NCBI RefSeq assembly: GCF_001677475.2
Contig: NZ_CP015229.1
Reading direction: 5' to 3' (one strand)
Length of the DNA stretch: 64,000 bases
Source of the DNA: Escherichia coli
GTDB taxonomy: Bacteria; Pseudomonadota; Gammaproteobacteria; Enterobacterales; Enterobacteriaceae
Shown here: piece after piece, positions 9,080-64,000 of the stretch
Layout: each line of letters opens with the position of its first letter
Position numbering within the stretch: position 1 is the stretch's first letter
Program-made: the position numbers and the translations under genes
The notes under the pieces: generated by a model
Seen by the model: the letters and a program-made list of their open reading frames with translations, nothing else
Told to the model about the DNA's origin: nothing
Database searches by the model: none

Positions 9080-9739
9080 ATGCGAATTTTACTGATAGAA
9101 GATGACATGCTGATTGGCGACGGCATCAAAACGGGCCTTAGTAAAATGGGTTTTAGCGTCGACTGGTTTACACAAGGTCGTCAGGGAAAAGAGGCGCTAT
9201 ACAGCGCACCTTATGATGCGGTGATCCTGGATTTAACCTTACCAGGCATGGATGGTCGCGATATTTTGCGCGAATGGCGAGAAAAAGGTCAGCGTGAGCC
9301 GGTATTGATCCTGACCGCGCGCGATGCGCTGGCGGAACGTGTAGAAGGGCTGCGTCTGGGAGCTGACGATTATCTGTGTAAACCTTTTGCGTTGATAGAA
9401 GTCGCCGCCAGGCTAGAAGCTCTGATGCGCCGAACCAACGGCCAGGCCAGCAACGAGCTGCGCCACGGCAACGTCATGCTCGACCCCGGCAAACGTATCG
9501 CCACACTGGCTGGCGAACCCTTAACGCTGAAACCAAAAGAATTTGCCCTGCTGGAATTACTGATGCGTAACGCTGGTCGGGTACTGCCGCGCAAACTGAT
9601 TGAAGAGAAACTGTATACCTGGGACGAAGAGGTCACCAGTAATGCCGTTGAAGTGCATGTGCATCATCTGCGACGCAAACTCGGCAGTGATTTTATTCGT
9701 ACCGTTCATGGTATTGGCTACACATTAGGTGAGAAATGA
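9080..9739 (+). CDS. qseB: Two-component response regulator QseB (OmpR family)
   Basis: 219 aa; receiver domain (MRILLIEDD) plus winged-helix C-terminus; 4-nt overlap with downstream kinase gene. Confidence 0.9.
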
Positions 9740-53844: not shown

Positions 53845-54351
53845 TTATCGCCCACGCACTACCAGCGCCTGGTCCAGCTCGCGATACGCTTCAACCAGTT
53901 TCTCCAGTGAAACGCGACTTAAACCGCTGGGATTTGGCAGCACCCAAATCTGCGTCGAACCAATGGTGAGCGTTTGTTTCCCCCACTGTGCACCGCGCTG
54001 GCTGAATCCCTGTTCATATGCTTGTTTGCCCAGAATCGCCAACGCCTGCGGCTGATAATCTTCAATTTTTTCAATCAGCTTACGCCCGCCTGCGTGTAGT
54101 TCTTGCTTTGAAACTTCATTGGCTTGCACCGTTGGACGGTCTACCAGTTTGGTGACGCCACAACGATAATCCAGCAGATGCTGTGCCTCCTGCGGCTTCA
54201 ACTGACGGTCGGTAAACCCGGCCTGATATATCACCTTCCAGAAGCGATTTGCCGGATGAGCAAAGGGAAAACCAGTCCCGGCGGATGAAAGCCCAGGGTT
54301 GATACCGCAAAACACGACCCGTAACCCTGGAGCCAAAATATCCTCAACCAT
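53845..54351 (-). CDS. mug: G/U mismatch-specific uracil-DNA glycosylase
   Basis: 168 aa; GINPG motif. Confidence 0.9.
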
Positions 54352-54475
54352 ATTTACTCCTTTCTAACATCACCAGGAAAAGTATAACGAATTGAAAATA
54401 CATTGTTTATAAAAACAGCAGGCGCGCGGTAATGGCTGGATTGCGACACGGAGTTACTTTATAATCCGCTACCAT

Positions 54476-54551
54476 GGCCCCTTAGCTCAGTGGTTAGAGC
54501 AGGCGACTCATAATCGCTTGGTCGCTGGTTCAAGTCCAGCAGGGGCCACCA
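54476..54551 (+). tRNA. ileX: tRNA-Ile2 (anticodon CAU, lysidine-modified), ileX-type
   Basis: 76-nt cloverleaf GGCCCCTTAGCTCAGTGGTTAGAGCAGGCGACTCATAATCGC...GGGGCCACCA with CAT anticodon and encoded CCA; differs from both Met tRNAs. Confidence 0.85.
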
Positions 54552-54765
54552 GATTTCAATGAATTACAGATGTATCCAAACTATCTTGCTTTACCAGGAT
54601 ACTTATAGGATACCTCTGAGAAGTATTAACAAGTAAGAATTGGCTCATGCCTACAGAACAGTTGGGTCGTAGCAGCCGTTCACCTGCGAACAAGAAAGTG
54701 CTACGGGTCTGAACTTTTGCCCCCAACTCTCCAAGAGACCGGCAAAAACCCTGACGGAGGTATCA

Positions 54766-54909
54766 ATGGATACTTTAAGAAAGGGCTCAGACCTGCTGTC
54801 TGCACGTGTGATTGCCGTTACAGGTTTAATCGCAGCACTTGGCAATTTAGGTCTATGCCCAATAGCCGTAGTGCTAGTATGTATAGCTTTAGTTATCATG
54901 CTGAAGTAA
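54766..54909 (+). CDS. Candidate 47-aa small membrane peptide (MDTLRKGSDLLSARVIAVTGLIAALGNLGLCPIAVVLVCIALVIMLK)
   Basis: ATG preceded by GGAGG at correct spacing; followed by GGCCCAGCtttcGCTGGGCC hairpin; rare codons (TTA, AGA, CTA, ATA); below the ORF-track size cutoff. Confidence 0.35.
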   Translation: MDTLRKGSDLLSARVIAVTGLIAALGNLGLCPIAVVLVCIALVIMLK

Positions 54910-55652
54910 TGACAGCGTAACAAGCTCGGCCCAGCTTTCGCTGGGCCTCCCATTTCTACCTCCCAAAATCTATTAGAAACAATAAGCCACTAAAGAAAGA
55001 GCTTTTGCTGGCTACAATACTCACATACAAACAATTTTTATTTTTCGCGGGCGTAAAAAAACGATGGGGCTGGCAGTCCGGAAGACGTCAGGGTACAGAG
55101 ATTTGTACCCGCCTCTCCCTGTGCATGAGCACAATAAGTAACCGAAGGCGGAATTCCGCCCTCGGTACTCACATATGAGAAACGATATTTCTTCCACCGA
55201 TACCCTTTATTTGGGTATCGCGAGTAAGCCCCAAAATCTGGGTGTTACTCTTACTACCCAAACTACGGGTAGTTTCCGTAGTTTCATGGTCGAGTTGCAG
55301 ATCTGCAACTCACCCACCAGCCAACGCAATTTTGCGTTATCGGGAATATCAGCAAGTTACCGCCGCAGTCGTTCCGGCTTCTTCCACTGGTAAGTATTTT
55401 TCGCGCTCTCCCTCCGTTGTTGAGAACGGCGACGGTATGCCAGCAACTCAAGGACTCTGATCCGTATGTCGCGCATATCCACGCCGTTAAGCTCGATACC
55501 GTCACGGCGCATCATCTCTGCCACCACACGCGCGTAATTTTCGGCTATCACGCTGTCCGGCTGCGTGGCCTCCTATTTGCTTGATGGTTGTTTGATTCCG
55601 GTAACGCGGCGGATTAATCCCAGCAATTCAGATTCTGTCATAGTGCGCTACG

Positions 55653-55992
55653 TTACTTGTCTTTATTCGGCTGCAACTTATCCGGCACATTTCCGGTAGT
55701 TTCCATCAGGTAATCAGCCAGTATCTGTGGGAGGTTGTCGGCAACTCTGGCACTGGCATTACAGGCTTTAACCACTTCCCTTTTAAGCCCATCCAGCATA
55801 GCGGGGGTAATGTGTGGGAAGCTCCTTTGCATAGTAAGCGGGAGGCTGTCCATGATTGATGAAATCTGACTCGCCAGTTTTGAAAGCGCGTACATGCAAA
55901 ACTCTGTATCAATCACGTCACCGCGATCGCGCTCGTTTTTAAGTTCCTGCGCCTCCGCCTGTGCTGTCAGTAATCTGATCCTGACTCGTAAG
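55653..55992 (-). pseudogene. Nu1-like small terminase subunit, C-terminal fragment (gene split by IS insertion)
   Basis: Translation ...LLTAQAEAQELKNERDRGDVIDTEFCMYALSKLASQISSIMDSLPLTMQRSF... resembles the lambda Nu1 C-terminal half; frame is open up to the IS boundary. Confidence 0.7.
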
Positions 55993-56085
55993 TATGAGAC
56001 GACAATAACTCAGTCCGCCTGGCGCCGATTATTCTGGCCGGTTTTGTAACCTGAGTGTCATTTACATGATCCAACAGGAAATGGC

Positions 56086-57465
56086 GTGACGCTCAATACT
56101 TCTCAGGTCAGTTACTATATGACTCAGCGTAAGAAAGGTATAACTCAGCATATCTCGGCCATGAAGGCTGGTATCTCAGTCCGTTCTGGTCGTCGGATCG
56201 AAAAAGGAGAGTGGGCAAAAAACAGTGTTCGGCACTGGCGCACACGCAAAGATCCTCTGGAAGCTGTGTGGGACAGCATGCTTGTTCCTCTGTTGAAAGA
56301 GAGGCCGGCTCTGACACCAACAACTCTACTGGAGATGCTACAGGATAAATATCCCGGCCAGTACCCCAACAGCCTTCGAAGAACAATGCAACGGCGGGTT
56401 CGCGAATGGAAACTACAGTATGGTACAGAGCAGGAGGTCATGTTCCGCCAGCAACATCAGCCCGGCCTGCGAGGCCTGTCGGACTTTACTGAACTGAAAG
56501 GTGTAGTTGTCACCATCGCCGGTAAGTTGTTGGCGCATAAGTTGTATCACTTCCGTCTGGAATGGAGCCACTGGAGCTGGATGCGGGTTGTTCTGGGTGG
56601 TGAGAGCTTCTCTGCTCTGGCTGAAGGCCTGCAGGAAGCCCTCGGACAACTGGGCGGAGTGCCGGTAGAACATAAAACGGACAGCCTGAGGGCAGCATGG
56701 AAACAACAGGGCGAAGATGGACGCCGCGAGCTGACTGAGCGTTATGCTACTCTCTGTCAGCACTACGGAATGCAGGGCGTACACAATAATGCCGGTCGGG
56801 GCCACGAAAATGGCTCGGTTGAAAGTGCCCACGGACATCTGAAAAGGCGTATCTGTCAGGCGCTGATACTGCGGGGCAGTAACGACTTCAGCACCATAGA
56901 AGAATATCAGGCCTTCATCACTCAGCAGGTTATGCGGCACAACCGTAACAATCAGGATCTGGTCAAGGAAGAACGTCTTCATCTGAAACCGCTGCCGCTT
57001 CGTCGCAGTGCTGACTATGATGAGCTGACTGTGAGGGTTAGTCGCAGCAGTACCATCAATGTGAAGCACGTCGTCTACAGCGTACCTTCCCGGCTTGTAG
57101 GTCAACTGTTACGGGTCAGGTTATGGGACGATCGTCTGAGCTGTTACGTTGGCAGCAGCGAGGTCATGAGCTGCCCTCGCGTCAGACCAGAAAAAGGGAA
57201 GACGCGGGCCCGTCGTATCGACTTCCGACATGTGATCGACAGTCTGGCAAAAAAGCCCGGTGCGTTCTGCCATGCAACGCTGAGAAATGACATCCTGCCG
57301 GACGATGAATGGCGGAGGCTGTGGCGTCGCTTATGTAATCATCTGGAGCCCGATATGGCAGGAAGGCTGATGGTACATGCCGGGAAACGTGGATCTGCAC
57401 CGGCTGATGCGCTTCCTGGGTATAAAAGAAAAGGCGTTGCCGGTAGTCAATGTGATACAGCATAA
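56086..57465 (+). CDS. istA: IS21-family transposase IstA
   Basis: 459-aa ORF (GTG 56086; ATG at 56119 also possible); N-terminal HTH-like region and DDE-type catalytic core typical of IstA. Confidence 0.8.
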   Translation: MTLNTSQVSYYMTQRKKGITQHISAMKAGISVRSGRRIEKGEWAKNSVRHWRTRKDPLEAVWDSMLVPLLKERPALTPTTLLEMLQDKYPGQYPNSLRRTMQRRVREWKLQYGTEQEVMFRQQHQPGLRGLSDFTELKGVVVTIAGKLLAHKLYHFRLEWSHWSWMRVVLGGESFSALAEGLQEALGQLGGVPVEHKTDSLRAAWKQQGEDGRRELTERYATLCQHYGMQGVHNNAGRGHENGSVESAHGHLKRRICQALILRGSNDFSTIEEYQAFITQQVMRHNRNNQDLVKEERLHLKPLPLRRSADYDELTVRVSRSSTINVKHVVYSVPSRLVGQLLRVRLWDDRLSCYVGSSEVMSCPRVRPEKGKTRARRIDFRHVIDSLAKKPGAFCHATLRNDILPDDEWRRLWRRLCNHLEPDMAGRLMVHAGKRGSAPADALPGYKRKGVAGSQCDTA

Positions 57466-57510
57466 CCTGAGCAGTTATGAGCAACTACTGCGTGGCAAGG
57501 GAGGTTCGCA

Positions 57511-58266
57511 GTGAGCAATATCCATCACCTTGAACATAGCCTGCGTAAACTACGCCTGACACGAGTTGGAGCTGAATGGCACGCTCTGGAAAAACGAGCG
57601 CTGGCAGAAGGCTGGACACCATCGCGCTATCTTCTGACGCTATGCAATGAAGAACTCCTGTGGCGCGAGAGTGAAAAACTGCGTCGTTATAAAAAGGAGG
57701 CCCGGTTGCCAGTTGCCAAAACGCTGAGCGAATACGACTTCAGTCAGGTGCCGGAACTGAATGGAGCTCAGTTCCGGCAACTCTGTGAAACGACAGACTG
57801 GGTTGATGCAGGAGAAAACGTTCTGCTGTTCGGAGCCAGCGGGTTGGGGAAAAGCCATCTGGCGGCAGCGATCGTGGATGGCGTAGTAGGTCAGGGCTAC
57901 CGGGCCCGGTTCTACAGCGCAGGAGAGCTGTTGCAGGAACTACGTAAAGCCAGAGCTCAGTTGAAACTGAATGAGCTGCTACTGAAACTGGATCGCTACC
58001 GGGTGATAGTGGTGGATGATCTTGGCTATGTCAAACGCGATAGTGCCGAAACGGGTGTGCTGTTCGAGTTAATAGCGCATCGCTATGAACGTGGGAGCCT
58101 GGTGATAACCAGTAACCATCCGTTCAGCATGTGGGGCAGCATCTTCGTGGATGAGACTATGGCGGTGGCTGCGGCAGACAGGCTGATCCATCACGGATAT
58201 ATGTTCGAACTGAAAGGGGAAAGCTACAGGAAAAAGACAGCGAAGGCAGTAACAAGCGCGACTTGA
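57511..58266 (+). CDS. istB: IS21-family helper ATPase IstB
   Basis: 251 aa; Walker A FGASGLGKSHLA and Walker B VIVVDDLGY; GTG start with GGAGG RBS. Confidence 0.85.
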   Translation: MSNIHHLEHSLRKLRLTRVGAEWHALEKRALAEGWTPSRYLLTLCNEELLWRESEKLRRYKKEARLPVAKTLSEYDFSQVPELNGAQFRQLCETTDWVDAGENVLLFGASGLGKSHLAAAIVDGVVGQGYRARFYSAGELLQELRKARAQLKLNELLLKLDRYRVIVVDDLGYVKRDSAETGVLFELIAHRYERGSLVITSNHPFSMWGSIFVDETMAVAAADRLIHHGYMFELKGESYRKKTAKAVTSAT

Positions 58267-58331
58267 TGTCGCCCTGAAGGGTGCGGCCAGTATAGTTGGC
58301 GCGAGTCGGCAAAACTAGTTGACGTCTAATA

Positions 58332-58544
58332 TCGTAAGAGTTCATCATCATCAATCTCGCCTTTGTCGTTTGTAAGCTGGCTAATTGCATTGTTAACCCT
58401 ATTGTCTATCACGCTGGCAACATCATAAAACGCCTCACGGCCTTTACGTTCAACGGGAGTCACTCCCCACTTGTCGAATGCTGTAGCACTTACCCGGCAG
58501 CTTTGCGCCATGGTTTTTTTGTTCATCAGGTGCGATTTCATCAA
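58332..58544 (-). pseudogene. Nu1-like small terminase subunit, N-terminal fragment (gene split by IS insertion)
   Basis: MNKKTMAQSCRVSATAFDKWGVTPVERKGREAFYDVASVI... resembles lambda Nu1 N-terminal winged-helix region; frame runs into the IS and stops two codons inside it. Confidence 0.7.
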
Positions 58545-58639
58545 TATCCCAACTTGGTCAAGGTTTCAGGTTGGTGTGTTGGTGTTATCTTTCCCTTTTT
58601 ATTCATGGAGATAGAGCAAACAACAAAACCACCACCACC

Positions 58640-58725
58640 CCCCTGAAAAAGCTCATAAATAGCGAAAAACCGCGAGGTCGCCGCCCCGTAACGGGTCCAT
58701 ATGCCGGAAAGGACCCGTAAAAAAA
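58640..58725 (-). other. Lambda-type cos site (cosQ-cosN-cosB); cosN 12-nt cohesive-end sequence at 58675-58686
   Basis: Reverse strand reads ACGGGTCCTTTCCGGCATATGGACCCGTTACG-GGGCGGCGACCT-CGCGGTTTTTCGCTATTTATGAGC, near-identical to the lambda cos region as recalled; lies immediately upstream of the Nu1-like gene as in lambda. Confidence 0.7.
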
Positions 58726-58741
58726 GCCGGATTTCTCCGGC
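58719..58741 (-). terminator. Rho-independent terminator after the capsid operon
   Basis: Reverse strand stem GGCCGGAGAAATCCGGC followed by TTTTTTT. Confidence 0.5.
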
Positions 58742-58747
58742 CTTGTC

Positions 58748-59161
58748 TCAGATGGTTTTCAGTATGCGATCGATGTCGCCATCATCGCCCGGGTTTCTGC
58801 CAGCGTATGCCATACCAGCTGATACGGCTTTCGGGCTGTGCATGTCCATAAAGTTTTCAAAGGCTGCGGTAAGCTCTGGTGCAACCTTCTGGCGTTCCTG
58901 CTCTATGGTCATGCTAAGGATGCTTTTAGCCGTACCAACATCGATACAAGGCACGTTTGCCATTGCACGTAACAGCGGCTGATAGTCGCCAGATTCATCA
59001 AGCGCCATAATCGCATCAGAGCGCGGCTTGTCCTTCTCTTCCAGGCTGTTAAGTTGATATACGGCCTCGTAGGTTGATAAACCTCTGTCAGCCATTGCCC
59101 GCGCTTCGGCCTTAAATTTACTCGCCAGCGGTAGCGTCATGATGCTTTCATTCGTTGCCAT
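58748..59161 (-). CDS. Hypothetical 137-aa protein, last gene of the capsid operon
   Basis: Tightly packed 12 nt downstream of the D-like gene; no family recognised. Confidence 0.5.
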   Translation of the reverse strand: MATNESIMTLPLASKFKAEARAMADRGLSTYEAVYQLNSLEEKDKPRSDAIMALDESGDYQPLLRAMANVPCIDVGTAKSILSMTIEQERQKVAPELTAAFENFMDMHSPKAVSAGMAYAGRNPGDDGDIDRILKTI

Positions 59162-59173
59162 CGTTCCCTCTGC

Positions 59174-59509
59174 TTATCGGGCCAGTGGCTGAACGGATAC
59201 GCCAGAACCCGCAAAGGCGGCGCATTTTTTCGCATCGGTGTCGACGCTCTCAGGCCAGTTAACGGCGGCGATATTAAATATCCCCGTCTTATAGCACTGT
59301 GCTGATTTCTGCGTCGACGTGTCAACGGGGTACGAGGTCAGATAAACAGCCTTGCCAGATTCCTGACCATCCCACGGCTTAAACTCGCCATTTTCCGCCA
59401 GCATCAGCGGGGTAAATTCCTGAATAACTCCAGCATCAGCGGCAAAATGTACCAGCGTCGTGGATACCTGCTGACTGCCTGCAAATAACTCAATGTATGG
59501 AGTGTTCAT
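59174..59509 (-). CDS. Head decoration protein, lambda gpD-like
   Basis: 111 aa; shared blocks with lambda D as recalled (TPLML, WDG, YKxGxF, WPE, KKxAAFAG); size matches (lambda D 110 aa). Confidence 0.7.
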   Translation of the reverse strand: MNTPYIELFAGSQQVSTTLVHFAADAGVIQEFTPLMLAENGEFKPWDGQESGKAVYLTSYPVDTSTQKSAQCYKTGIFNIAAVNWPESVDTDAKKCAAFAGSGVSVQPLAR

Positions 59510-59520
59510 AGAATCCCCCG

Positions 59521-60576
59521 TTAAGCAATTTTGACGGTAACAAATTTGCGAATATCTGCCGGTACCGGCTGCGGTGCGCTGTGCGTCTGCACGTACTCAA
59601 TCGCCGGATCGCCATCCTCAATCCAGTTTTTCGGGTAGTACATGTTTTGCGTTGCGCCAGTTCTTACCGCTTCCGGATCCATAATCGCACCATAGGCCAC
59701 CAGCCCTTTATTGTTAGTGTTGCCCAGGACAAGCAAATCAGGCTCAAGGAAATATTTTTCGGTGCCATCGCTGTCGGTGTATTTGCCGGAATAGACGATA
59801 AGGGCCAGATCACCCAGATAGCCTTTAAAGCTCACCACTTCGCCCAGGTTTTTACAGGCCAGCTCTGCGGCGGATTCTGAACCACGGGAAAGATCGTACA
59901 GTTCACGGAATTTTTTAAAGCTGCGTAACGTGCGCCATACCTCAGCGCCCATAATCATGACGTTGGCGGGGCAACCAGCCTGATCGGTGTATAGTTCGAT
60001 GTCATAGATTGGATCGTGTGTTTCCTTATCTGCCTCAGACCACTTTTTGCCCGATCCCTGCGTAATGATGTTTTTAGTCGGGATTTTCCAGTCGATTTCG
60101 TATCTATTTATTCCTTCGCCCTCAATGATGTTTTTTCCGGTCGTGACCGCATTCACCGCCAGCCATTCTATGCGAGCTTTAATAGCGTTTACCTGGCGGC
60201 GCATGTTGCCAGTAATCAGGCGCATACGGCGATAAGTTGGATCGTTAAGCTGTGCCGGATCTTCTCCAGCCATGCGCATGATGGTTTTTGATGGATCGAT
60301 TTCGTGTTTTGGTTTCATATAGCCAGGGCGGATAGTGCTTGTTTCGTACCCTTTATCGCGCTGAACCTGACTCCCCACCATAGGCGAACAAAAAGCCGAC
60401 ATGGTGACTTCTTCAATATCCAGGGTATCTAACATGATGTCCTGCGTGTTGAAGGTTGCCACGTTCGGGAAAAACAGCGACGTAAACAGCGGACTGAATT
60501 TAAATTCCGAAATATCCCCACGATTCAGGTACGCGAAAAGCTGGTTAGTGTTAAGTGCCGTTGCTTTGCCTGTCAT
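59521..60576 (-). CDS. Major capsid protein, lambda gpE-like
   Basis: 351 aa; blocks FKFSPLFTSLFF and PGYMKPKHEIDP, YPKNWIEDGDPA, SAPQP match lambda E motifs (FKFDPLFLRLFF, PGYVKPKHEVNP, YPKNWVTTGDPA, SAPLM) as recalled; similar length. Confidence 0.85.
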   Translation of the reverse strand: MTGKATALNTNQLFAYLNRGDISEFKFSPLFTSLFFPNVATFNTQDIMLDTLDIEEVTMSAFCSPMVGSQVQRDKGYETSTIRPGYMKPKHEIDPSKTIMRMAGEDPAQLNDPTYRRMRLITGNMRRQVNAIKARIEWLAVNAVTTGKNIIEGEGINRYEIDWKIPTKNIITQGSGKKWSEADKETHDPIYDIELYTDQAGCPANVMIMGAEVWRTLRSFKKFRELYDLSRGSESAAELACKNLGEVVSFKGYLGDLALIVYSGKYTDSDGTEKYFLEPDLLVLGNTNNKGLVAYGAIMDPEAVRTGATQNMYYPKNWIEDGDPAIEYVQTHSAPQPVPADIRKFVTVKIA

Positions 60577-60782
60577 TATTCACCCCCATGAGTCTGATTC
60601 ATGCCCAGCGCCGCGCGTAAATAGGCGCGTACCTGCCAGCCTGTTGACGGCTCAACCATCGCCAGCGGCTCAAGTCCTGCCGCAATGCCTGCTTTTACGT
60701 TCTGCTGGTGGCGTTCCTTGAGCGCCTCCACGATGTCTGGGCTTATGTAAACTGTCACCCCGCCTTTTTTCTCTTCTGCCAT
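60576..60782 (-). CDS. Hypothetical 68-aa protein, first gene of the capsid operon, translationally coupled to the capsid gene
   Basis: ORF 60576-60815 from GTG; better start at internal ATG (MAEEKKGG) with AGAGGA RBS; stop TAA overlaps capsid ATG by 1 nt. Confidence 0.45.
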   Translation of the reverse strand: MAEEKKGGVTVYISPDIVEALKERHQQNVKAGIAAGLEPLAMVEPSTGWQVRAYLRAALGMNQTHGGE

Positions 60783-60820
60783 AGTCGGAAATTCCTCTTT
60801 GACGTTAAAAATCACAACTG

Positions 60821-60852
60821 GATGTTCATCCAGTTGTGATTATAATCATGAT
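60821..60852. promoter_or_regulatory. Perfect 14-bp-arm palindrome upstream of the capsid operon (candidate operator; contains CTG-N10-CAG)
   Basis: AATCACAACTGGATG-TTCA-TCCAGTTGTGATT about 40-70 bp upstream of the operon start. Confidence 0.4.
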
Positions 60853-60993
60853 TTCATTTTACGCAATAATGTTGAGTTGTGTTGCAAATTGTGAAATGAT
60901 TTCCGGCAACAGTAGTCACCATACTGTTAGATAAAAGCCTCATATGCAAAAGCCCGATAAGACCCTCTGACCTTATCGGGCTTTTTTTGGGGC

Positions 60994-61018
60994 ATAAAAA
61001 AGCCGGACTTCTCCGGCT
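60994..61018 (-). terminator. Rho-independent terminator after the SSB-like gene
   Basis: Reverse strand AGCCGGAGAAGTCCGGCT followed by TTTTTT; adjacent second hairpin (60952-60988) with T-run on the + strand. Confidence 0.5.
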
Positions 61019-61033
61019 TCTGTTACTCGTTGC

Positions 61034-61456
61034 TTAAAACGGTATGTTATCCCCGTACGGATCATCGTTACCCGCCTGTTGTTTTGCCCTGTTCAGTGCG
61101 TCAGTAGCCTGCCCTTGCTGGCCTTTTTTGCCGCCCGGTCGCGCCGTTCTCGCACTGATTACGCTGTCTGCGATAACCTGCCAGCCCTGCCGCGTTTCGC
61201 CGTTCTGGCCTGTCCACTGGCTTACCTGCATGTTACCCGCCACGCTCACCAGTTCGCCTTTGTGGTGTTTTGCCAGTGCGTCGGCCTGTCTGCCAAACGC
61301 CAGGACGGATAACCACATCGTCGCCGTTCCGTCATCTGCCTGGCTGCACGGAAGGGGGACCGCCATACTAGCCATCGTCATTTGTGTACCCTTGCTGGTG
61401 GTCTTTAACTGCGGGTCAGCCACCAGCCGCCCGTAAGCCGCTATCTGTGCTGTCAT
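61034..61456 (-). CDS. SSB-like single-stranded-DNA-binding protein (divergent OB fold with conserved acidic C-terminal tail)
   Basis: 140 aa; Gly/Gln-rich linker and C-terminus DDPYGDNIPF resembling the SSB tail (DFDDDIPF). Confidence 0.55.
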   Translation of the reverse strand: MTAQIAAYGRLVADPQLKTTSKGTQMTMASMAVPLPCSQADDGTATMWLSVLAFGRQADALAKHHKGELVSVAGNMQVSQWTGQNGETRQGWQVIADSVISARTARPGGKKGQQGQATDALNRAKQQAGNDDPYGDNIPF

Positions 61457-61698
61457 GCTGTCTGCTCTCCGGTTTTAACGTTGATGGTTGTCACCTGTTC
61501 CGCTTCGGCAATCTCCCGTTCTGTCAGCGTGGCAAAGTTTGCAGCTGCCGTTGTCATGAATGCGCTAATCAGTTCGGGATGTGCTTTCGCATATCCTTCC
61601 CCGGCGTTGCGGTCGATGATTTTTATCGACACCCTTAACCAGTGTTCCGTCAAATCAAGGGCGTGCGATTGTGATTTTTTTGTGTGCTTCGCTGTCAT
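61453..61698 (-). CDS. Hypothetical 81-aa protein, 4-nt overlap with the SSB-like gene
   Basis: ORF begins just downstream of the iteron array and overlaps the SSB-like start; no family recognised. Confidence 0.4.
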   Translation of the reverse strand: MTAKHTKKSQSHALDLTEHWLRVSIKIIDRNAGEGYAKAHPELISAFMTTAAANFATLTEREIAEAEQVTTINVKTGEQTA

Positions 61699-61740
61699 AG
61701 GCTTTATCTCACAGCAGTAAATTAAAATTTTTGCGTTTTA

Positions 61741-61980
61741 ACCCTTCACCTGTTCACCTTTTGATATTTTCCATTTAAATTCATACTGTTAAGGGGTGAA
61801 CAGTTTCACAAAAACTATTCACCAACTGTTCACCACTGTTCACCCTTGAAGCTCAATAAACAACCAAAAAGGTGAACAGTGAATAGTTTGGTGAATAGTT
61901 CATAAATAACTGTTCACCCTATAATATACTGATATAAAAGATATTTATGACAGGGTGAACAGTGGTGAACAGTTATTCCA
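61741..61980. repeat. Iteron array: at least 8 perfect copies of TGTTCACC (both orientations) plus degenerate copies; candidate replication origin
   Basis: Direct reading: CCTGTTCACC, GGGGTGAACAGT, ACTGTTCACCACTGTTCACCC, AGGTGAACAGT, ACTGTTCACCC, GGGTGAACAGTGGTGAACAGT in AT-rich context between the helicase and SSB genes. Confidence 0.75.
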
Positions 61981-61985
61981 TAAGT

Positions 61986-63818
61986 TTAATTTTTGCTATC
62001 GTCATTAGTGACTGATACACATGATGGCATCCAGTCTTCTGATTCCTCCGTCAGTGTCACGTTTGAACGTAAACCGTGCTTCGTTTTCCGTTTTATATAC
62101 TCCCTGCCATATTCCGCCATTGCCCCAGGCATATCTTTACCGAAGCGCGTCAGTGTTACAGGTTTACCAAACCCATGAGCCCTCATATAAGCCAGATAGG
62201 CATGATAGAGATACCTGCGCGGGCTGAATGGCACAATTTCAGCATTACCCACTAACAGGCCATCACACATTACCGACGCCATGAGATAGCCGCAGAAGTC
62301 CACCAGCGAATCCCCCTCTCGCTTTATCGCCAGTGCTTCTTCAGATTTCTGCTGCTCATATAACAGGCGTCTGGCTTCGTCCTGGTCAGCAAACCTTGTA
62401 AGCAGATGGCGAATCACTACCGCCAGCTCACCTTCTATTTTTTCCGCCAGCATCGGATCGCGTTCGTTCTCCGGTACAACTTCCGAAAAATTGAATATCA
62501 CCCGACGACGTGAGATCCCCCCGCTGCGGTCACTGAATGACATGGCGTTATTGTTAACCGCCAGCACTACTGCCGGAATACGCGTTGAGTAGGGGGCTTT
62601 GTGTTTCGGGTCAATTGCCACCTTGTCACCGCCTGTAATGGCCTTAATTCCTGCCCCATCACCAGCGTAGCGGGTCATATCCGGCATGATAATCAGCGAA
62701 AAGCCAACCACTAACGCGCGTTCCCTTGCATCTTCCAGCGCCTTCATGCTTGCCGATACTGTGTTGGCCTTACCCGCCAGCATGGTGCAAATCTCCGCCA
62801 TCACGCTTTTACCACTTCCCCCTGGACCTGTTACCTCAATGAATAACTGCCAGTCGTACCGGTTCGCCAGCACCATGAATAATGCAGCCAGTACGCGATC
62901 CGCCTTGCGGTCATTCTCAGCCACCGAACGGCGTAACCACTTCCAGAAATTCGGCGCATGTGTTGCCAGCGTTTCCCCCTCTGCTGGTGGGCTGAAAGGT
63001 AATTCACTGGCAATTAACAACCAGTCGTTTTTGTTATGCTCCCGAAAATTACCTGTTCTGGTATCAAATACCCCGTTACTGAATCCAATCAGGTTACGGG
63101 CTGTATTCCCCATTACAGGCAAACTTAACTTCATGGTATCGACCGCCGATTTAATGGCGTTCTGCGAATAGCTGATCTCCGCATCAATGAAAATCTGCGC
63201 CATAGCACGCTGTAACTCTTTATCCTGAACCGGCTCCCATACAACGCCGTTGTAATGGTGAACAGTGTCAGAGTCAGCATGAATCGCCAGTTCACCGCCA
63301 TAATGTGCCAGGAGAACTTCGCCGCGTTGACTTGCTCCCATCTGGTTAAGCGCCAGTGATGAAGCGTTATCGTCTTTTACCCGCTCTTTTTTCTTTACAG
63401 GCAGTTCAACTACCTTTTTCTTTTCCGCCAGCTCTGCCCGTTCACGTTCCAGATATTCGCGCCAGTTCTCCCGTTTCTGGCTGTGCATTCCTTCAGGATA
63501 ATAATCAGCATCCCTGACACCTGCCGCTGCCAGTTTCTGCCCGATGGTATTAACAAGCCCCGGACGCAATAACCCCGCCTGGTAGAGACGCACACGATAG
63601 CGTCCGTCCGGTACGATTTGCAGGTTGTCCAGTTCGGCAAGTTGTTGCTCTCCAAGCCAGACAGGAGGCACGTTATCGCCAGCCAGTCGCCCGTCCTGTT
63701 CCTGCCACTGCTTCGCATGTGCCCACGCATCACTACCCGCAAAAATGATGACTTCCGTCATTTTGTCACGTGGCTGGTGTTTTAAATTTGGCGCTTTTTT
63801 CATTTCTGCTCTCTCCAC
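61986..63818 (-). CDS. Replication initiator/helicase, SF3 (D5-like) family, P4 alpha-type
   Basis: 610 aa; Walker A GPGGSGKS in a D5/SF3-helicase-like core; sits next to the iteron array; start may be at a downstream Met. Confidence 0.75.
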   Translation of the reverse strand: MERAEMKKAPNLKHQPRDKMTEVIIFAGSDAWAHAKQWQEQDGRLAGDNVPPVWLGEQQLAELDNLQIVPDGRYRVRLYQAGLLRPGLVNTIGQKLAAAGVRDADYYPEGMHSQKRENWREYLERERAELAEKKKVVELPVKKKERVKDDNASSLALNQMGASQRGEVLLAHYGGELAIHADSDTVHHYNGVVWEPVQDKELQRAMAQIFIDAEISYSQNAIKSAVDTMKLSLPVMGNTARNLIGFSNGVFDTRTGNFREHNKNDWLLIASELPFSPPAEGETLATHAPNFWKWLRRSVAENDRKADRVLAALFMVLANRYDWQLFIEVTGPGGSGKSVMAEICTMLAGKANTVSASMKALEDARERALVVGFSLIIMPDMTRYAGDGAGIKAITGGDKVAIDPKHKAPYSTRIPAVVLAVNNNAMSFSDRSGGISRRRVIFNFSEVVPENERDPMLAEKIEGELAVVIRHLLTRFADQDEARRLLYEQQKSEEALAIKREGDSLVDFCGYLMASVMCDGLLVGNAEIVPFSPRRYLYHAYLAYMRAHGFGKPVTLTRFGKDMPGAMAEYGREYIKRKTKHGLRSNVTLTEESEDWMPSCVSVTNDDSKN

Positions 63819-64000
63819 GCGGCAATCATGTTTTTCAGTTCCTGTAGTTTTTTATCAACATCCATACATGACACATGGTTATTTCTGGAAGGCGGGATTT
63901 CCCGCCGGAATCTGCAAATAAAGATCTCCACGTTCAGCGAGCTATGAAATGAATAGCCATCACGAATAAAATACACACGGTCAAACATTATCGATTTTAC

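What the first reader, a model, noticed from the sequence alone, without database searches (positions are those of the whole stretch)
61034..61698. SSB-like protein with a conserved C-terminal tail, plus an overlapping 81-aa ORF, between origin and capsid operon
The 140-aa protein ends in DDPYGDNIPF, resembling the acidic SSB tail (D-x-IPF) that recruits host replication and repair proteins, but its N-terminal region is divergent and short. A satellite-encoded SSB mimic could divert host or helper SSB partners toward satellite replication. The upstream 81-aa ORF overlaps it by 4 nt and is of unknown function.
Basis: partly seen in the sequence, partly recalled or inferred. Interest (0 to 1): 0.5.

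Follow-up and report, generated by a model that had tools for sequence, protein, structure and literature searches.

The report
Ordinary SSB gene in a PICI
This is a genuine but small single-stranded-DNA-binding protein gene in the replication module of a well-known type of E. coli phage satellite; it is already annotated and common, so it is ordinary, although nobody has tested what it or its 81-aa partner does.

Summary
A 140-aa ORF (61034-61456, minus strand) ends in DDPYGDNIPF. An 81-aa ORF (61453-61698) overlaps its start by 4 nt (ATGA). Both lie between an iteron origin (61720-61985) and a capsid operon.

The 140-aa protein is a real SSB, not a mimic. It matches Pfam PF00436 (E 6.7e-16) and scores above the curated TIGR00621 cut-off. 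Its AlphaFold model has pLDDT 93-98 over residues 1-100, and the best structural matches are all solved bacterial SSBs. The OB domain is complete. The protein is short because its linker has 26 residues, against 56 in E. coli SSB.

The tip [YFW]-x-D-x-IPF is conserved in relatives down to 35% identity.

The island is an EcCICFT073-type PICI. The identical protein is RefSeq WP_000126655.1, named "single-stranded DNA-binding protein". The prototype's c1497 was labelled "ssb" in a 2018 supplement, and a 2023 paper places SSB in the PICI replication category. The gene pair occurs in 31% of complete E. coli genomes.

Most likely role: an accessory replication SSB that links satellite forks to host partner proteins through the tip. 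This is inferred, not shown. I found no evidence that it diverts partners from the helper. The 81-aa protein remains an orphan with a predicted helical hairpin.

The parts
61034..61456 (-). SSB gene, 140 aa, identical to RefSeq WP_000126655.1. Stop codon at 61034-61036.
   Evidence: ORF. TIGR00621 61.1 bits against a cut-off of 53.95. PF00436, E 6.7e-16; phrog_44, 1.4e-39; 100% DNA match to TUM1886, where the CDS is named single-stranded DNA-binding protein.
61145..61456 (-). OB-fold domain of the SSB (residues 1-104). W48, F54 and W81 align with E. coli SSB W54, F60 and W88. Ends in the subfamily motif SAR[TS]xRP.
   Evidence: AlphaFold pLDDT 93-98 over residues 1-100; the 50 listed Foldseek matches in the PDB are all bacterial SSBs, probability 1.00, target TM-score 0.66-0.84; alignments.
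61067..61144 (-). Short basic linker (residues 105-130; pI 11.1, 5 K+R). It lacks the Gly/Pro/Gln-rich repeats of the E. coli SSB linker.
   Evidence: composition; pLDDT 59-70; the length-variable part of the alignment.
61037..61066 (-). C-terminal tip DDPYGDNIPF (residues 131-140), an SSB-Ct-type docking motif.
   Evidence: [YFW]-x-D-x-[IL]-P-F is conserved to 35% identity, with D136 and F140 invariant. It aligns with DFDDDIPF of E. coli SSB.
61453..61698 (-). 81-aa ORF (RefSeq WP_000125507.1, hypothetical protein; phrog_1231; counterpart of EcCICFT073 c1496). Variable basic N-terminus, nearly invariant C-terminal 50 residues, predicted helical hairpin.
   Evidence: 164 homologue clusters, all enterobacterial among those that carry an organism name, none of the 120 listed has a Pfam domain; no Pfam match; pLDDT 68.5, helices 6-32 and 41-77; no match in PDB sequences, PADLOC or PDB folds.
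61453..61456 (-). ATGA stop/start overlap coupling the 81-aa ORF to the SSB gene.
   Evidence: The same 4-nt overlap between the SSB gene and whatever gene lies upstream is seen in L001, L004, L006, L007, L009-L014; the upstream gene was not called in L008.
61720..61985 (.). Iteron field, the putative island replication origin: GGTGAACAG/CTGTTCACC repeats flanking AT-rich DNA, immediately 3' of the primase gene.
   Evidence: The layout matches that described for Gram-negative PICI origins in PMC6092414.
61986..63818 (-). P4-family primase/helicase (Pri-Rep) of the island.
   Evidence: TIGR01613, 3.5e-27; phrog_864, 6e-192; named 'DNA primase family protein'.
60944..61021 (-). Two tandem terminator-like hairpins with U-runs just after the SSB stop codon. 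They close the replication transcription unit ahead of the capsid operon.
   Evidence: minimum free energy -43.8 kcal/mol, z = -4.87, 1 of 200 shuffles folds as well. The simple pattern scan missed them.

Best explanation
The 140-aa gene encodes a genuine bacterial-type single-stranded-DNA-binding protein that belongs to the replication module of an EcCICFT073-type phage-inducible chromosomal island (PICI).

Shown: it has a complete OB fold with the family's DNA-stacking aromatic residues, a short disordered linker and a conserved SSB-type C-terminal tip. It always lies directly downstream of the island's replicase and origin. Its start overlaps the stop of the preceding gene. Here it is followed by terminators that separate it from the capsid operon.

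Inferred: when a helper phage induces the island, the replicase opens the iteron origin and unwinds DNA. The island's own SSB, made together with the replicase, coats the exposed single strands. Its ...D-N-I-P-F tip docks host SSB partners, such as the chi subunit of DNA polymerase III and PriA, so that host polymerase works on satellite forks while helper and satellite replication compete for the limited host SSB.

It is an accessory factor, not an essential one, because pri-rep plus ori alone replicate a plasmid in E. coli. The 81-aa protein is most likely a small helical cofactor of the same module, acting on the SSB or the replicase. My confidence in that last point is low.
For: Family membership:
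- TIGR00621 scores 61.1 bits against a curated cut-off of 53.95.
- PF00436 has E 6.7e-16 over residues 5-99, covering model positions 4-101 of 104.
- phmmer finds 27 solved SSBs with E <= 0.001, the best being T. maritima 1z9f at 3.5e-10.
- The AlphaFold model has pLDDT 93-98 for residues 1-100, and the 50 listed Foldseek matches are all SSBs.
- W48, F54 and W81 align with E. coli W54, F60 and W88.

Tip: conserved across close and distant relatives.

Position in the replication module across island types:
- P4-type primase here and in TUM1886.
- RepA-family helicase in an O157:H7 PICI.
- D5_N/DUF5906 primase in capsid-forming PICIs.
- DUF927 protein in another island.
- A replication-initiator-like gene in a distant island.
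- A 4-nt start overlap with the upstream gene wherever that gene was called.

Other support:
- An iteron origin lies next to the pair and terminators follow the SSB gene.
- The pair is found in 1669 of 5426 complete E. coli genomes, with 2219 of 2222 places chromosomal.
- EcCICFT073 c1497 is labelled 'ssb' between c1496 (85 aa) and c1498/c1499 capsid (PMC6092414 supplement).
- 'Primase, SSB and DUF5906' are placed in the Replication category (PMC10111431).
- pri-rep plus ori are sufficient for plasmid replication (PMC6092414).
- SSB partners dock on the SSB C-terminal tip (PMC10164576 abstract).
- From my own recall, in vitro replication driven by the P4 alpha protein needs host SSB and Pol III holoenzyme.
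Against: - No experiment on this protein, or on c1497, was found in the library.
- ssDNA binding, oligomeric state and tip-partner binding could not be tested here.
- The tip is less acidic than the host's: PYGDNIPF has one acidic residue in its last eight, against four in DFDDDIPF. His55 of E. coli SSB, which I recall as important for tetramer stability, is Leu here. Partner range and assembly may therefore differ.
- Host SSB evidently suffices for basal pri-rep/ori replication, so the benefit of a second SSB is an assumption.
Confidence: 0.7

Rival explanations
1. Conflict role. The satellite SSB exists mainly to manipulate others. It might soak up or redirect host SSB-interacting proteins (or helper proteins that dock on the SSB tip, such as lambda Red-beta-type recombinases) away from the helper. 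Alternatively it might act as a decoy, shield or trigger for defence systems that sense foreign SSBs.
For: - The tip is host-like but consistently different from the host's at positions -4 and -6.
- The lineage is restricted to islands and absent from 50,697 phage records, where the best match is 31% identical.
- Foreign SSBs are sensed by Retron-Eco8 and DARNA (PMC13402713 and bioRxiv 10.64898/2026.02.22.705581, abstracts).
- Phage SSB tails cooperate with phage recombinases (PMC11846896).
- c1496 and c1497 were never included in the published interference screen.
Against: - Deleting c1503 alone fully restored lambda plaquing on EcCICFT073 carriers, so ssb is not a major anti-lambda factor there.
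- The protein keeps a complete, well-conserved DNA-binding OB fold, which a pure decoy would not need.
- It is placed and co-translated with replication genes, not with the interference and packaging genes.
- It has no PADLOC match.
Confidence: 0.12
2. Recombination or ssDNA-protection role. The SSB protects or processes single-stranded intermediates of the island outside origin-dependent replication, for example during concatemer formation by recombination-dependent or rolling-circle synthesis, cos-end handling, or establishment after injection.
For: - SSBs of temperate phages and conjugative plasmids work with recombinases or protect incoming ssDNA (PMC11846896; the plasmid ssf gene complements an ssb mutant, PMC3334931).
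- The gene lies at the border between the replication and packaging modules.
Against: - The island shows no recombinase or annealase gene.
- PICI DNA enters cells as double-stranded DNA in phage particles (my own knowledge).
- The gene is tied to the replicase in every island type examined.
Confidence: 0.1
3. Functionless passenger. The SSB gene and the 81-aa ORF are hitch-hiking remnants with no selected function in the island.
For: pri-rep plus ori replicate without them. This copy of the island is already damaged by an IS21-family insertion in its TerS/Rpp-like gene.
Against: - The intact pair is kept in 31% of complete E. coli genomes, across PICIs and capsid-forming PICIs with three different replicase types.
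- The tip and the DNA-binding residues are conserved down to 35% identity.
- The C-terminal 50 residues of the 81-aa protein are nearly invariant.
Confidence: 0.04

Closest known systems
EcCICFT073 c1497 ('ssb', 136 aa) and c1496 (85 aa), and their orthologues in EDL933 (Z1845) and Sakai (ECs1587) islands, now called capsid-forming PICIs
   Same: Same position (replicase - origin - small ORF - ssb - 68-aa ORF - 351-aa capsid - decoration) and matching gene sizes. The 136-aa allele cluster P0080 is 84% identical and sits in capsid-forming PICIs with the same 4-nt overlap.
   Different: This allele has 140 aa because of small linker differences. The small ORF has 81 rather than 85 aa, with a different N-terminus. 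I did not align the CFT073 sequence itself.
E. coli chromosomal SSB (178 aa)
   Same: OB fold; W54, F60 and W88 equivalents; a disordered linker; a tip ending D-x-I-P-F with an aromatic residue at position -7.
   Different: - Only 25% identity over the OB domain.
- Shorter L23 loop with no W40 counterpart, and His55 replaced by Leu.
- The linker has 26 residues and is basic, against 56 residues rich in Gly, Pro and Gln.
- The tip has fewer acidic residues.
- Whole-protein pI is 8.9 against 5.4.
SSBs carried by other mobile elements: F-plasmid Ssf, SSBs of temperate phages such as 80alpha, and SsbB of the gonococcal genetic island
   Same: An extra SSB copy supplied by a mobile element. Ssf complements an E. 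coli ssb mutant, and SsbB is a stable ssDNA-binding tetramer (PMC3334931). The 80alpha SSB uses its last 7 residues to work with a partner protein (PMC11846896).
   Different: - tblastn with this SSB found no enterobacterial conjugative-plasmid or coliphage SSB among the listed matches at E <= 1e-5.
- From my own recall, Ssf is a close paralogue of host SSB and lies in the plasmid leading region.
- SsbB does not complement an ssb mutant and belongs to a separate family linked to ParA/ParB/TopB.
- The present lineage is tied to the replicase and origin of integrase/AlpA islands.
Short-linker SSB subfamily on small integrative elements of other bacteria (for example P0250 in L004 and P0260 in L006)
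   Same: 125-150 aa, 35-57% identity, the SAR[TS]xRP motif after the OB fold, tips of the form PFDDxIPF/LPF, and a start overlapping the upstream gene in an integrase-bearing element.
   Different: The upstream partners are different and not homologous: a 66-aa ORF, which looks like a ribbon-helix-helix protein by eye (not tested), and a 253-aa initiator-like protein. These elements show no capsid genes.

Membership tests
Bacterial SSB family (Pfam PF00436 / NCBIfam TIGR00621) | The family profile matches across the whole OB domain, above the curated threshold. | tested here: met
   TIGR00621 61.1 bits against a cut-off of 53.95. PF00436 E 6.7e-16, model positions 4-101 of 104. phrog_44 1.4e-39.
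Bacterial SSB family (Pfam PF00436 / NCBIfam TIGR00621) | Three-dimensional OB fold like that of solved SSBs. | tested here: met
   AlphaFold model with pLDDT 93-98 over residues 1-100. The 50 listed Foldseek PDB matches are all SSBs, probability 1.00. phmmer matches 27 solved SSBs with E <= 0.001.
Bacterial SSB family (Pfam PF00436 / NCBIfam TIGR00621) | Aromatic residues that stack on ssDNA (E. coli W40, W54, F60, W88). | tested here: met
   W48, F54 and W81 align with W54, F60 and W88. F54 is invariant and W48 nearly invariant in the 45-sequence alignment. W40 has no counterpart because the loop is shorter. Three of four are present.
Bacterial SSB family (Pfam PF00436 / NCBIfam TIGR00621) | Disordered linker followed by an acidic C-terminal tip ending in [IL]-P-F. 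| tested here: met
   The tip is DDPYGDNIPF. The pattern is conserved in close and distant relatives, and pLDDT is low after residue 105.
Bacterial SSB family (Pfam PF00436 / NCBIfam TIGR00621) | Homotetramer that binds ssDNA; can replace E. coli ssb. | not testable with these tools
   Needs purified protein (SEC-MALS, EMSA) and a plasmid-exchange complementation test. Leu replaces E. coli His55.
Gram-negative PICI of the EcCICFT073 type (the element that carries the gene) | Gene order int - alpA-type regulator - pri(-rep) - origin - morphogenesis/packaging genes, about 10-15 kb, at a fixed chromosomal site. | tested here: met
   The TUM1886 copy is 99.9% identical to window 58332-64000 and 100% over 60900-61800. 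It is bounded by an integrase and a tRNA, spans about 11 kb and has this order. Gene sizes match c1496-c1500. The window holds only the part from the tRNA to just beyond the primase gene, at the window end.
Gram-negative PICI of the EcCICFT073 type (the element that carries the gene) | Iteron origin immediately 3' of the replicase gene. | tested here: met
   two sets of GGTGAACAG repeats around AT-rich DNA at 61720-61985. The layout is as described in PMC6092414.
Gram-negative PICI of the EcCICFT073 type (the element that carries the gene) | Induction, replication and high-frequency transfer by a helper phage. | not testable with these tools
   This is experimental. The copy here also has an IS21-family insertion in the TerS/Rpp-like gene.
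SSB-tip mimic or decoy (a protein that carries the tip without being an SSB) | No functional OB-fold DNA-binding domain. | tested here: not met
   A complete, confidently modelled OB fold with conserved DNA-contact residues is present.

The most novel reading that the evidence does not exclude
The 81-aa ORF and the SSB form a portable two-protein cassette restricted to satellites. E. coli PICIs and capsid-forming PICIs keep it whatever replicase they use. In this reading the SSB does more than coat DNA. Its host-like but systematically altered tip (PYGDNIPF against DFDDDIPF) and its basic linker would give it a distinct partner set. That could include direct coupling to the island's self-loading primase-helicase, competition with the helper for host SSB partners, or evasion or triggering of SSB-sensing defences. 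The 81-aa helical protein would be a new SSB or replicase cofactor.
Probability: 0.12. Interest if true: 0.5.

Novelty: already known. Interest (0 to 1): 0.18.

Why it matters
The finding matters little as it stands. The gene is correctly annotated in RefSeq, is present in about a third of complete E. coli genomes, and PICI papers already list it as ssb and as part of the replication module. What remains open is experimental: why satellites that can replicate with host SSB keep their own copy, and what the always-attached 81-aa protein does. If the island SSB tunes access to the host SSB partner network during helper infection, it would add a replication-level layer to satellite-helper conflict. 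It would also bear on defence systems that sense foreign SSBs. The data here do not require that reading.

Tried and rejected
- **Locating EcCICFT073 in CFT073 by guessing coordinates.** Both stretches were a lambdoid prophage and core genes, not the island. I used the paper's supplementary table instead.
- **A literature search with min_terms=1.** It returned only generic SSB papers.
- **A wrong assumption about the 2019 interference screen.** I first assumed it had cloned every gene after the origin, so that c1497 had been tested. The plasmid and primer tables start at c1499, and c1496/c1497 never occur. I withdrew that claim and kept only the inference from the c1503 deletion.
- **The simple terminator scan.** It missed the hairpins after the SSB gene. 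Folding the strand showed them.
- **Function of the 81-aa ORF.** I found no Pfam match, no NCBIfam match, only an unknown-function PHROG, no PADLOC match and no significant PDB sequence match (best E 0.4). The model has pLDDT 68.5 and gave no fold match (best E 3.2). All of this is uninformative.
- **A conserved partner upstream of the SSB gene in other islands.** The 257-aa ORF upstream of the SSB in DUF927 islands is not related to the 81-aa ORF (BLASTP E 2.9). The 66-aa and 253-aa upstream ORFs of more distant islands gave, respectively, no PHROG match and only weak replication-initiator matches. The pairing is therefore specific to the E. coli PICI set.
- **Per-segment conservation among close homologues.** It did not separate OB domain, linker and tip (0.83-0.92 identity to the query for all). 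The distant alignment was the informative one.
- **Rfam scan of 54000-64000.** It found only the tRNA.
- **Not examined.** The plus-strand ORFs that overlap the pair (61044-61436, 61384-61638, 61481-61720) were not looked at further. The minus-strand ORFs carry the family matches and the RefSeq annotation.
Full report
**What is there**

The ORF list and the sequence confirm the finding's coordinates. A 140-aa ORF lies on the minus strand at 61034-61456 and ends NDDPYGDNIPF. An 81-aa ORF lies at 61453-61698. The two share four bases, which read ATGA on the coding strand. A GGAG sits 10 nt before the SSB start codon.

Upstream in the direction of transcription is a P4-family primase gene at 61986-63818 (TIGR01613 3.5e-27, phrog_864 6e-192). 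Between it and the 81-aa ORF, 61720-61985 carries about 13 copies of GGTGAACAG/CTGTTCACC in both orientations around AT-rich DNA.

Downstream of the SSB stop codon the transcript can form two strong hairpins followed by U-runs, at about 60944-61021. The fold has a free energy of -43.8 kcal/mol and a z-score of -4.87 against shuffles. After these comes a separate operon with a small ORF, a lambda-E-like major capsid gene, a head decoration gene and a 137-aa ORF.

**The 140-aa protein is a real SSB**

- It scores 61.1 bits on NCBIfam TIGR00621, above the curated cut-off of 53.95.
- Pfam PF00436 matches residues 5-99 at E 6.7e-16, covering model positions 4-101 of 104.
- phmmer against PDB sequences finds 27 solved SSBs with E <= 0.001, the best being Thermotoga maritima 1z9f at 3.5e-10.
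- An AlphaFold model built on 45 sequences has pLDDT 93-98 across residues 1-100 and 59-70 afterwards.
- Foldseek against the PDB returns only bacterial SSBs in its 50 listed matches (probability 1.00, target TM-score 0.66-0.84).

Identity to E. coli SSB is only 25% over the OB domain. In the alignment, W48, F54 and W81 stand at the positions of E. coli W54, F60 and W88. The loop that holds W40 in E. coli is shorter here, and His55 is replaced by Leu.

That is not so. The OB domain is complete. What is short is the linker: 26 residues, basic (pI 11.1), against 56 Gly/Pro/Gln-rich residues in E. coli SSB.

**The tail is a conserved motif, not a coincidence**

Among the 120 best clusters of close homologues, the last ten residues are DDPYGDNIPF (49), DDPYGDGIPF (18), DDPYEDEIPF, DDPYGDDIPF, NEQWGDDIPF, DDPFSDDIPF and similar variants.

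A full HMMER scan of 1.84 billion cluster representatives found 7198 relatives at E <= 0.001 and 330 at E <= 1e-10. Those at 35-57% identity are mostly 125-150 aa long. Typical endings are PFDDEIPF, DFDDAIPF and PFDDELPF, and the commonest tips are IPF (24), LPF (14) and VPF (5).

In the 45-sequence alignment that includes E. coli SSB, D136 and F140 are invariant, and an aromatic residue usually stands at position -7, as in E. coli DFDDDIPF. The protein therefore belongs to a broad subfamily of short-linker SSBs that keep the canonical partner-docking tip. This island's tip is less acidic than the host's: it has N at -4 and G at -6.

**The element and what is already known**

The region is 100% identical over 901 bp to E. 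coli TUM1886. There RefSeq annotates the two genes as WP_000126655.1 "single-stranded DNA-binding protein" and WP_000125507.1 "hypothetical protein".

In TUM1886 the island is about 11 kb. Its gene order is integrase, helix-turn-helix regulator, Icd-like, DUF4222, primase, 81-aa ORF, SSB, 68-aa ORF, major capsid, head decoration, 137-aa ORF and "terminase small subunit". It is bounded by a tRNA gene next to mug.

This is the architecture of Gram-negative phage-inducible chromosomal islands of the EcCICFT073 type. The supplement of Fillol-Salom et al. 2018 (PMC6092414) lists c1496 (85 aa), c1497 labelled "ssb" (136 aa), c1498 (68 aa), c1499 capsid (351 aa) and c1500 head decoration. It also lists c1497 orthologues in EDL933 (Z1845), Sakai and other strains.

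Mageeney et al. [quoted passage not shown]

The gene is thus known and named. The main texts of the PICI papers I read do not discuss it, and I found no experiment on it.

**Distribution and context**

- The pair is found in 1669 of 5426 complete E. coli genomes, with up to six places per genome; 2219 of 2222 places are on chromosomes. Nearly every listed hit carries the annotation pair "SSB | hypothetical protein".
- The 756 homologue clusters come, where the listed ones are named, from Escherichia, Shigella, Salmonella and Citrobacter, and are all named SSB.
- No record among 50,697 phage genomes holds a relative above 31% identity. The best matches are Gram-positive phages.
- Plasmid hits above 60% identity are few.

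The lineage is therefore an island lineage and is not shared with the helper phages.

The SSB keeps the same place in several island types:

| Island type | Gene before the SSB pair | Upstream ORF | After the SSB |
|---|---|---|---|
| This island and TUM1886 | P4-type primase | 81 aa | terminators, then capsid operon |
| O157:H7 PICI | RepA-family helicase | 83 aa | PerC |
| Capsid-forming PICIs | D5_N/DUF5906 primase | 85 aa | PerC, then HK97-type capsid, portal, HNH, TerS, TerL |
| DUF927 islands | DUF927 protein | unrelated 257-aa ORF | ProQ, PerC |
| Distant integrase/AlpA island | (not identified) | replication-initiator-like 253-aa ORF | other ORFs |

In every case where the upstream gene was called, the SSB start overlaps its stop by 4 nt. 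This constant attachment to the replicase, together with the terminators that follow the SSB gene here, places it in the replication transcription unit and not in the packaging or interference unit.

**Most likely mechanism**

Shown: the fold, the conserved DNA-contact residues, the conserved tip, the position and the translational coupling.

Inferred: after helper-phage induction the island's replicase opens the iteron origin and unwinds DNA. The co-expressed SSB coats the single strands. Its tip docks host partners, as SSB-interacting proteins do on the host SSB C-terminal tip (PMC10164576 abstract). This would let host polymerase III and restart proteins act on satellite forks at a time when helper and satellite replication both draw on the host SSB pool.

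From my own recall, replication driven by the related P4 alpha protein in vitro needs only alpha, host SSB, Pol III holoenzyme and gyrase. That fits a primase-helicase that depends directly on an SSB.

The role must be accessory, because pri-rep plus ori alone maintain a plasmid in E. coli DH5alpha (PMC6092414). I put this explanation at about 0.7.

**Rival explanations**

- **Diversion or conflict.** This idea cannot be excluded, because c1496 and c1497 were not among the genes cloned in the 2019 interference screen: the plasmid tables begin at c1499. However, deleting c1503 (rppA) alone fully restored lambda plaquing (PMC6739421). A decoy would not need an intact OB fold. The gene travels with replication genes. 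Foreign SSBs are sensed by Retron-Eco8 and DARNA, and phage SSB tails cooperate with phage recombinases (PMC11846896), so a conflict-related side role is conceivable. I put it at about 0.12.
- **Recombination or ssDNA protection.** The island lacks a recombinase gene. I put this at about 0.1.
- **Functionless passenger.** This is contradicted by the wide conservation of the intact pair and of the tip. I put it at about 0.04.

**The 81-aa ORF**

It belongs to phrog_1231 (unknown function). It has 164 homologue clusters, all enterobacterial among those that carry an organism name, and none of the 120 listed has a Pfam domain. Its N-terminus is variable and basic. Its C-terminal 50 residues (GEGYAKAHPELISAFMTTAAANFATLTEREIAEAEQVTTINVK) are nearly invariant.

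AlphaFold gives a two-helix hairpin at modest confidence (pLDDT 68.5). PDB sequence, PDB fold and PADLOC searches gave nothing.

My best guess is a small cofactor of the replication module, co-translated with the SSB. This rests only on position and coupling.

**Verdict**

"Mimic", "short N-terminus" and "diversion" are not supported. The gene is already annotated and listed in the PICI literature, so novelty is low. The open questions are experimental ones.

Noticed in passing
window 55993-58331 (istA 56086-57465, istB 57511-58266); flanks 55652-55992 and 58332-58544: An IS21-family element is inserted with a 7-bp target duplication (TCGTAAG) into the island's 'terminase small subunit'/Rpp-like gene. 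That gene is intact in strain TUM1886. This copy of the island is probably unable to direct its own packaging.
   Followed up: partly
window 54476-54551: A tRNA gene with anticodon CAT borders the island next to mug. ARAGORN calls it Met; RefSeq calls it tRNA-Ile. The integrase end of the island lies beyond the window end.
   Followed up: partly
window 58748-59161 (minus strand): A 137-aa ORF (phrog_1999, unknown function) weakly matches the C-terminal end of the head-maturation protease family phrog_53 (1.3e-8). It lies next to lambda-E-like capsid and D-like decoration genes. It may be a Nu3-like scaffold protein of the satellite.
   Followed up: no
L007 9636-9908; L008-L010 9467-10196; L011-L014 about 9421-9693: In other E. 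coli islands the SSB gene is followed directly by PerC-family and/or ProQ-domain genes. These are absent from this window's island, where terminators follow instead.
   Followed up: no
L004 (metagenome contig, 23 kb): The contig repeats the same gene set with a period of about 9.6 kb: integrase, a 66-aa ORF that looks like a ribbon-helix-helix protein by eye (not tested), a short-linker SSB, an AAA_25 helicase and Dam. This looks like a tandem or circular small element carrying a 55%-identical SSB.
   Followed up: no
window 60576-60815 (minus strand): The first gene of the capsid operon is a small ORF: 79 aa from a GTG start, or 68 aa as annotated in RefSeq. It is the counterpart of EcCICFT073 c1498 and belongs to phrog_3255, of unknown function. 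A weak sigma-70-like promoter site lies upstream at 60895-60866.
   Followed up: no
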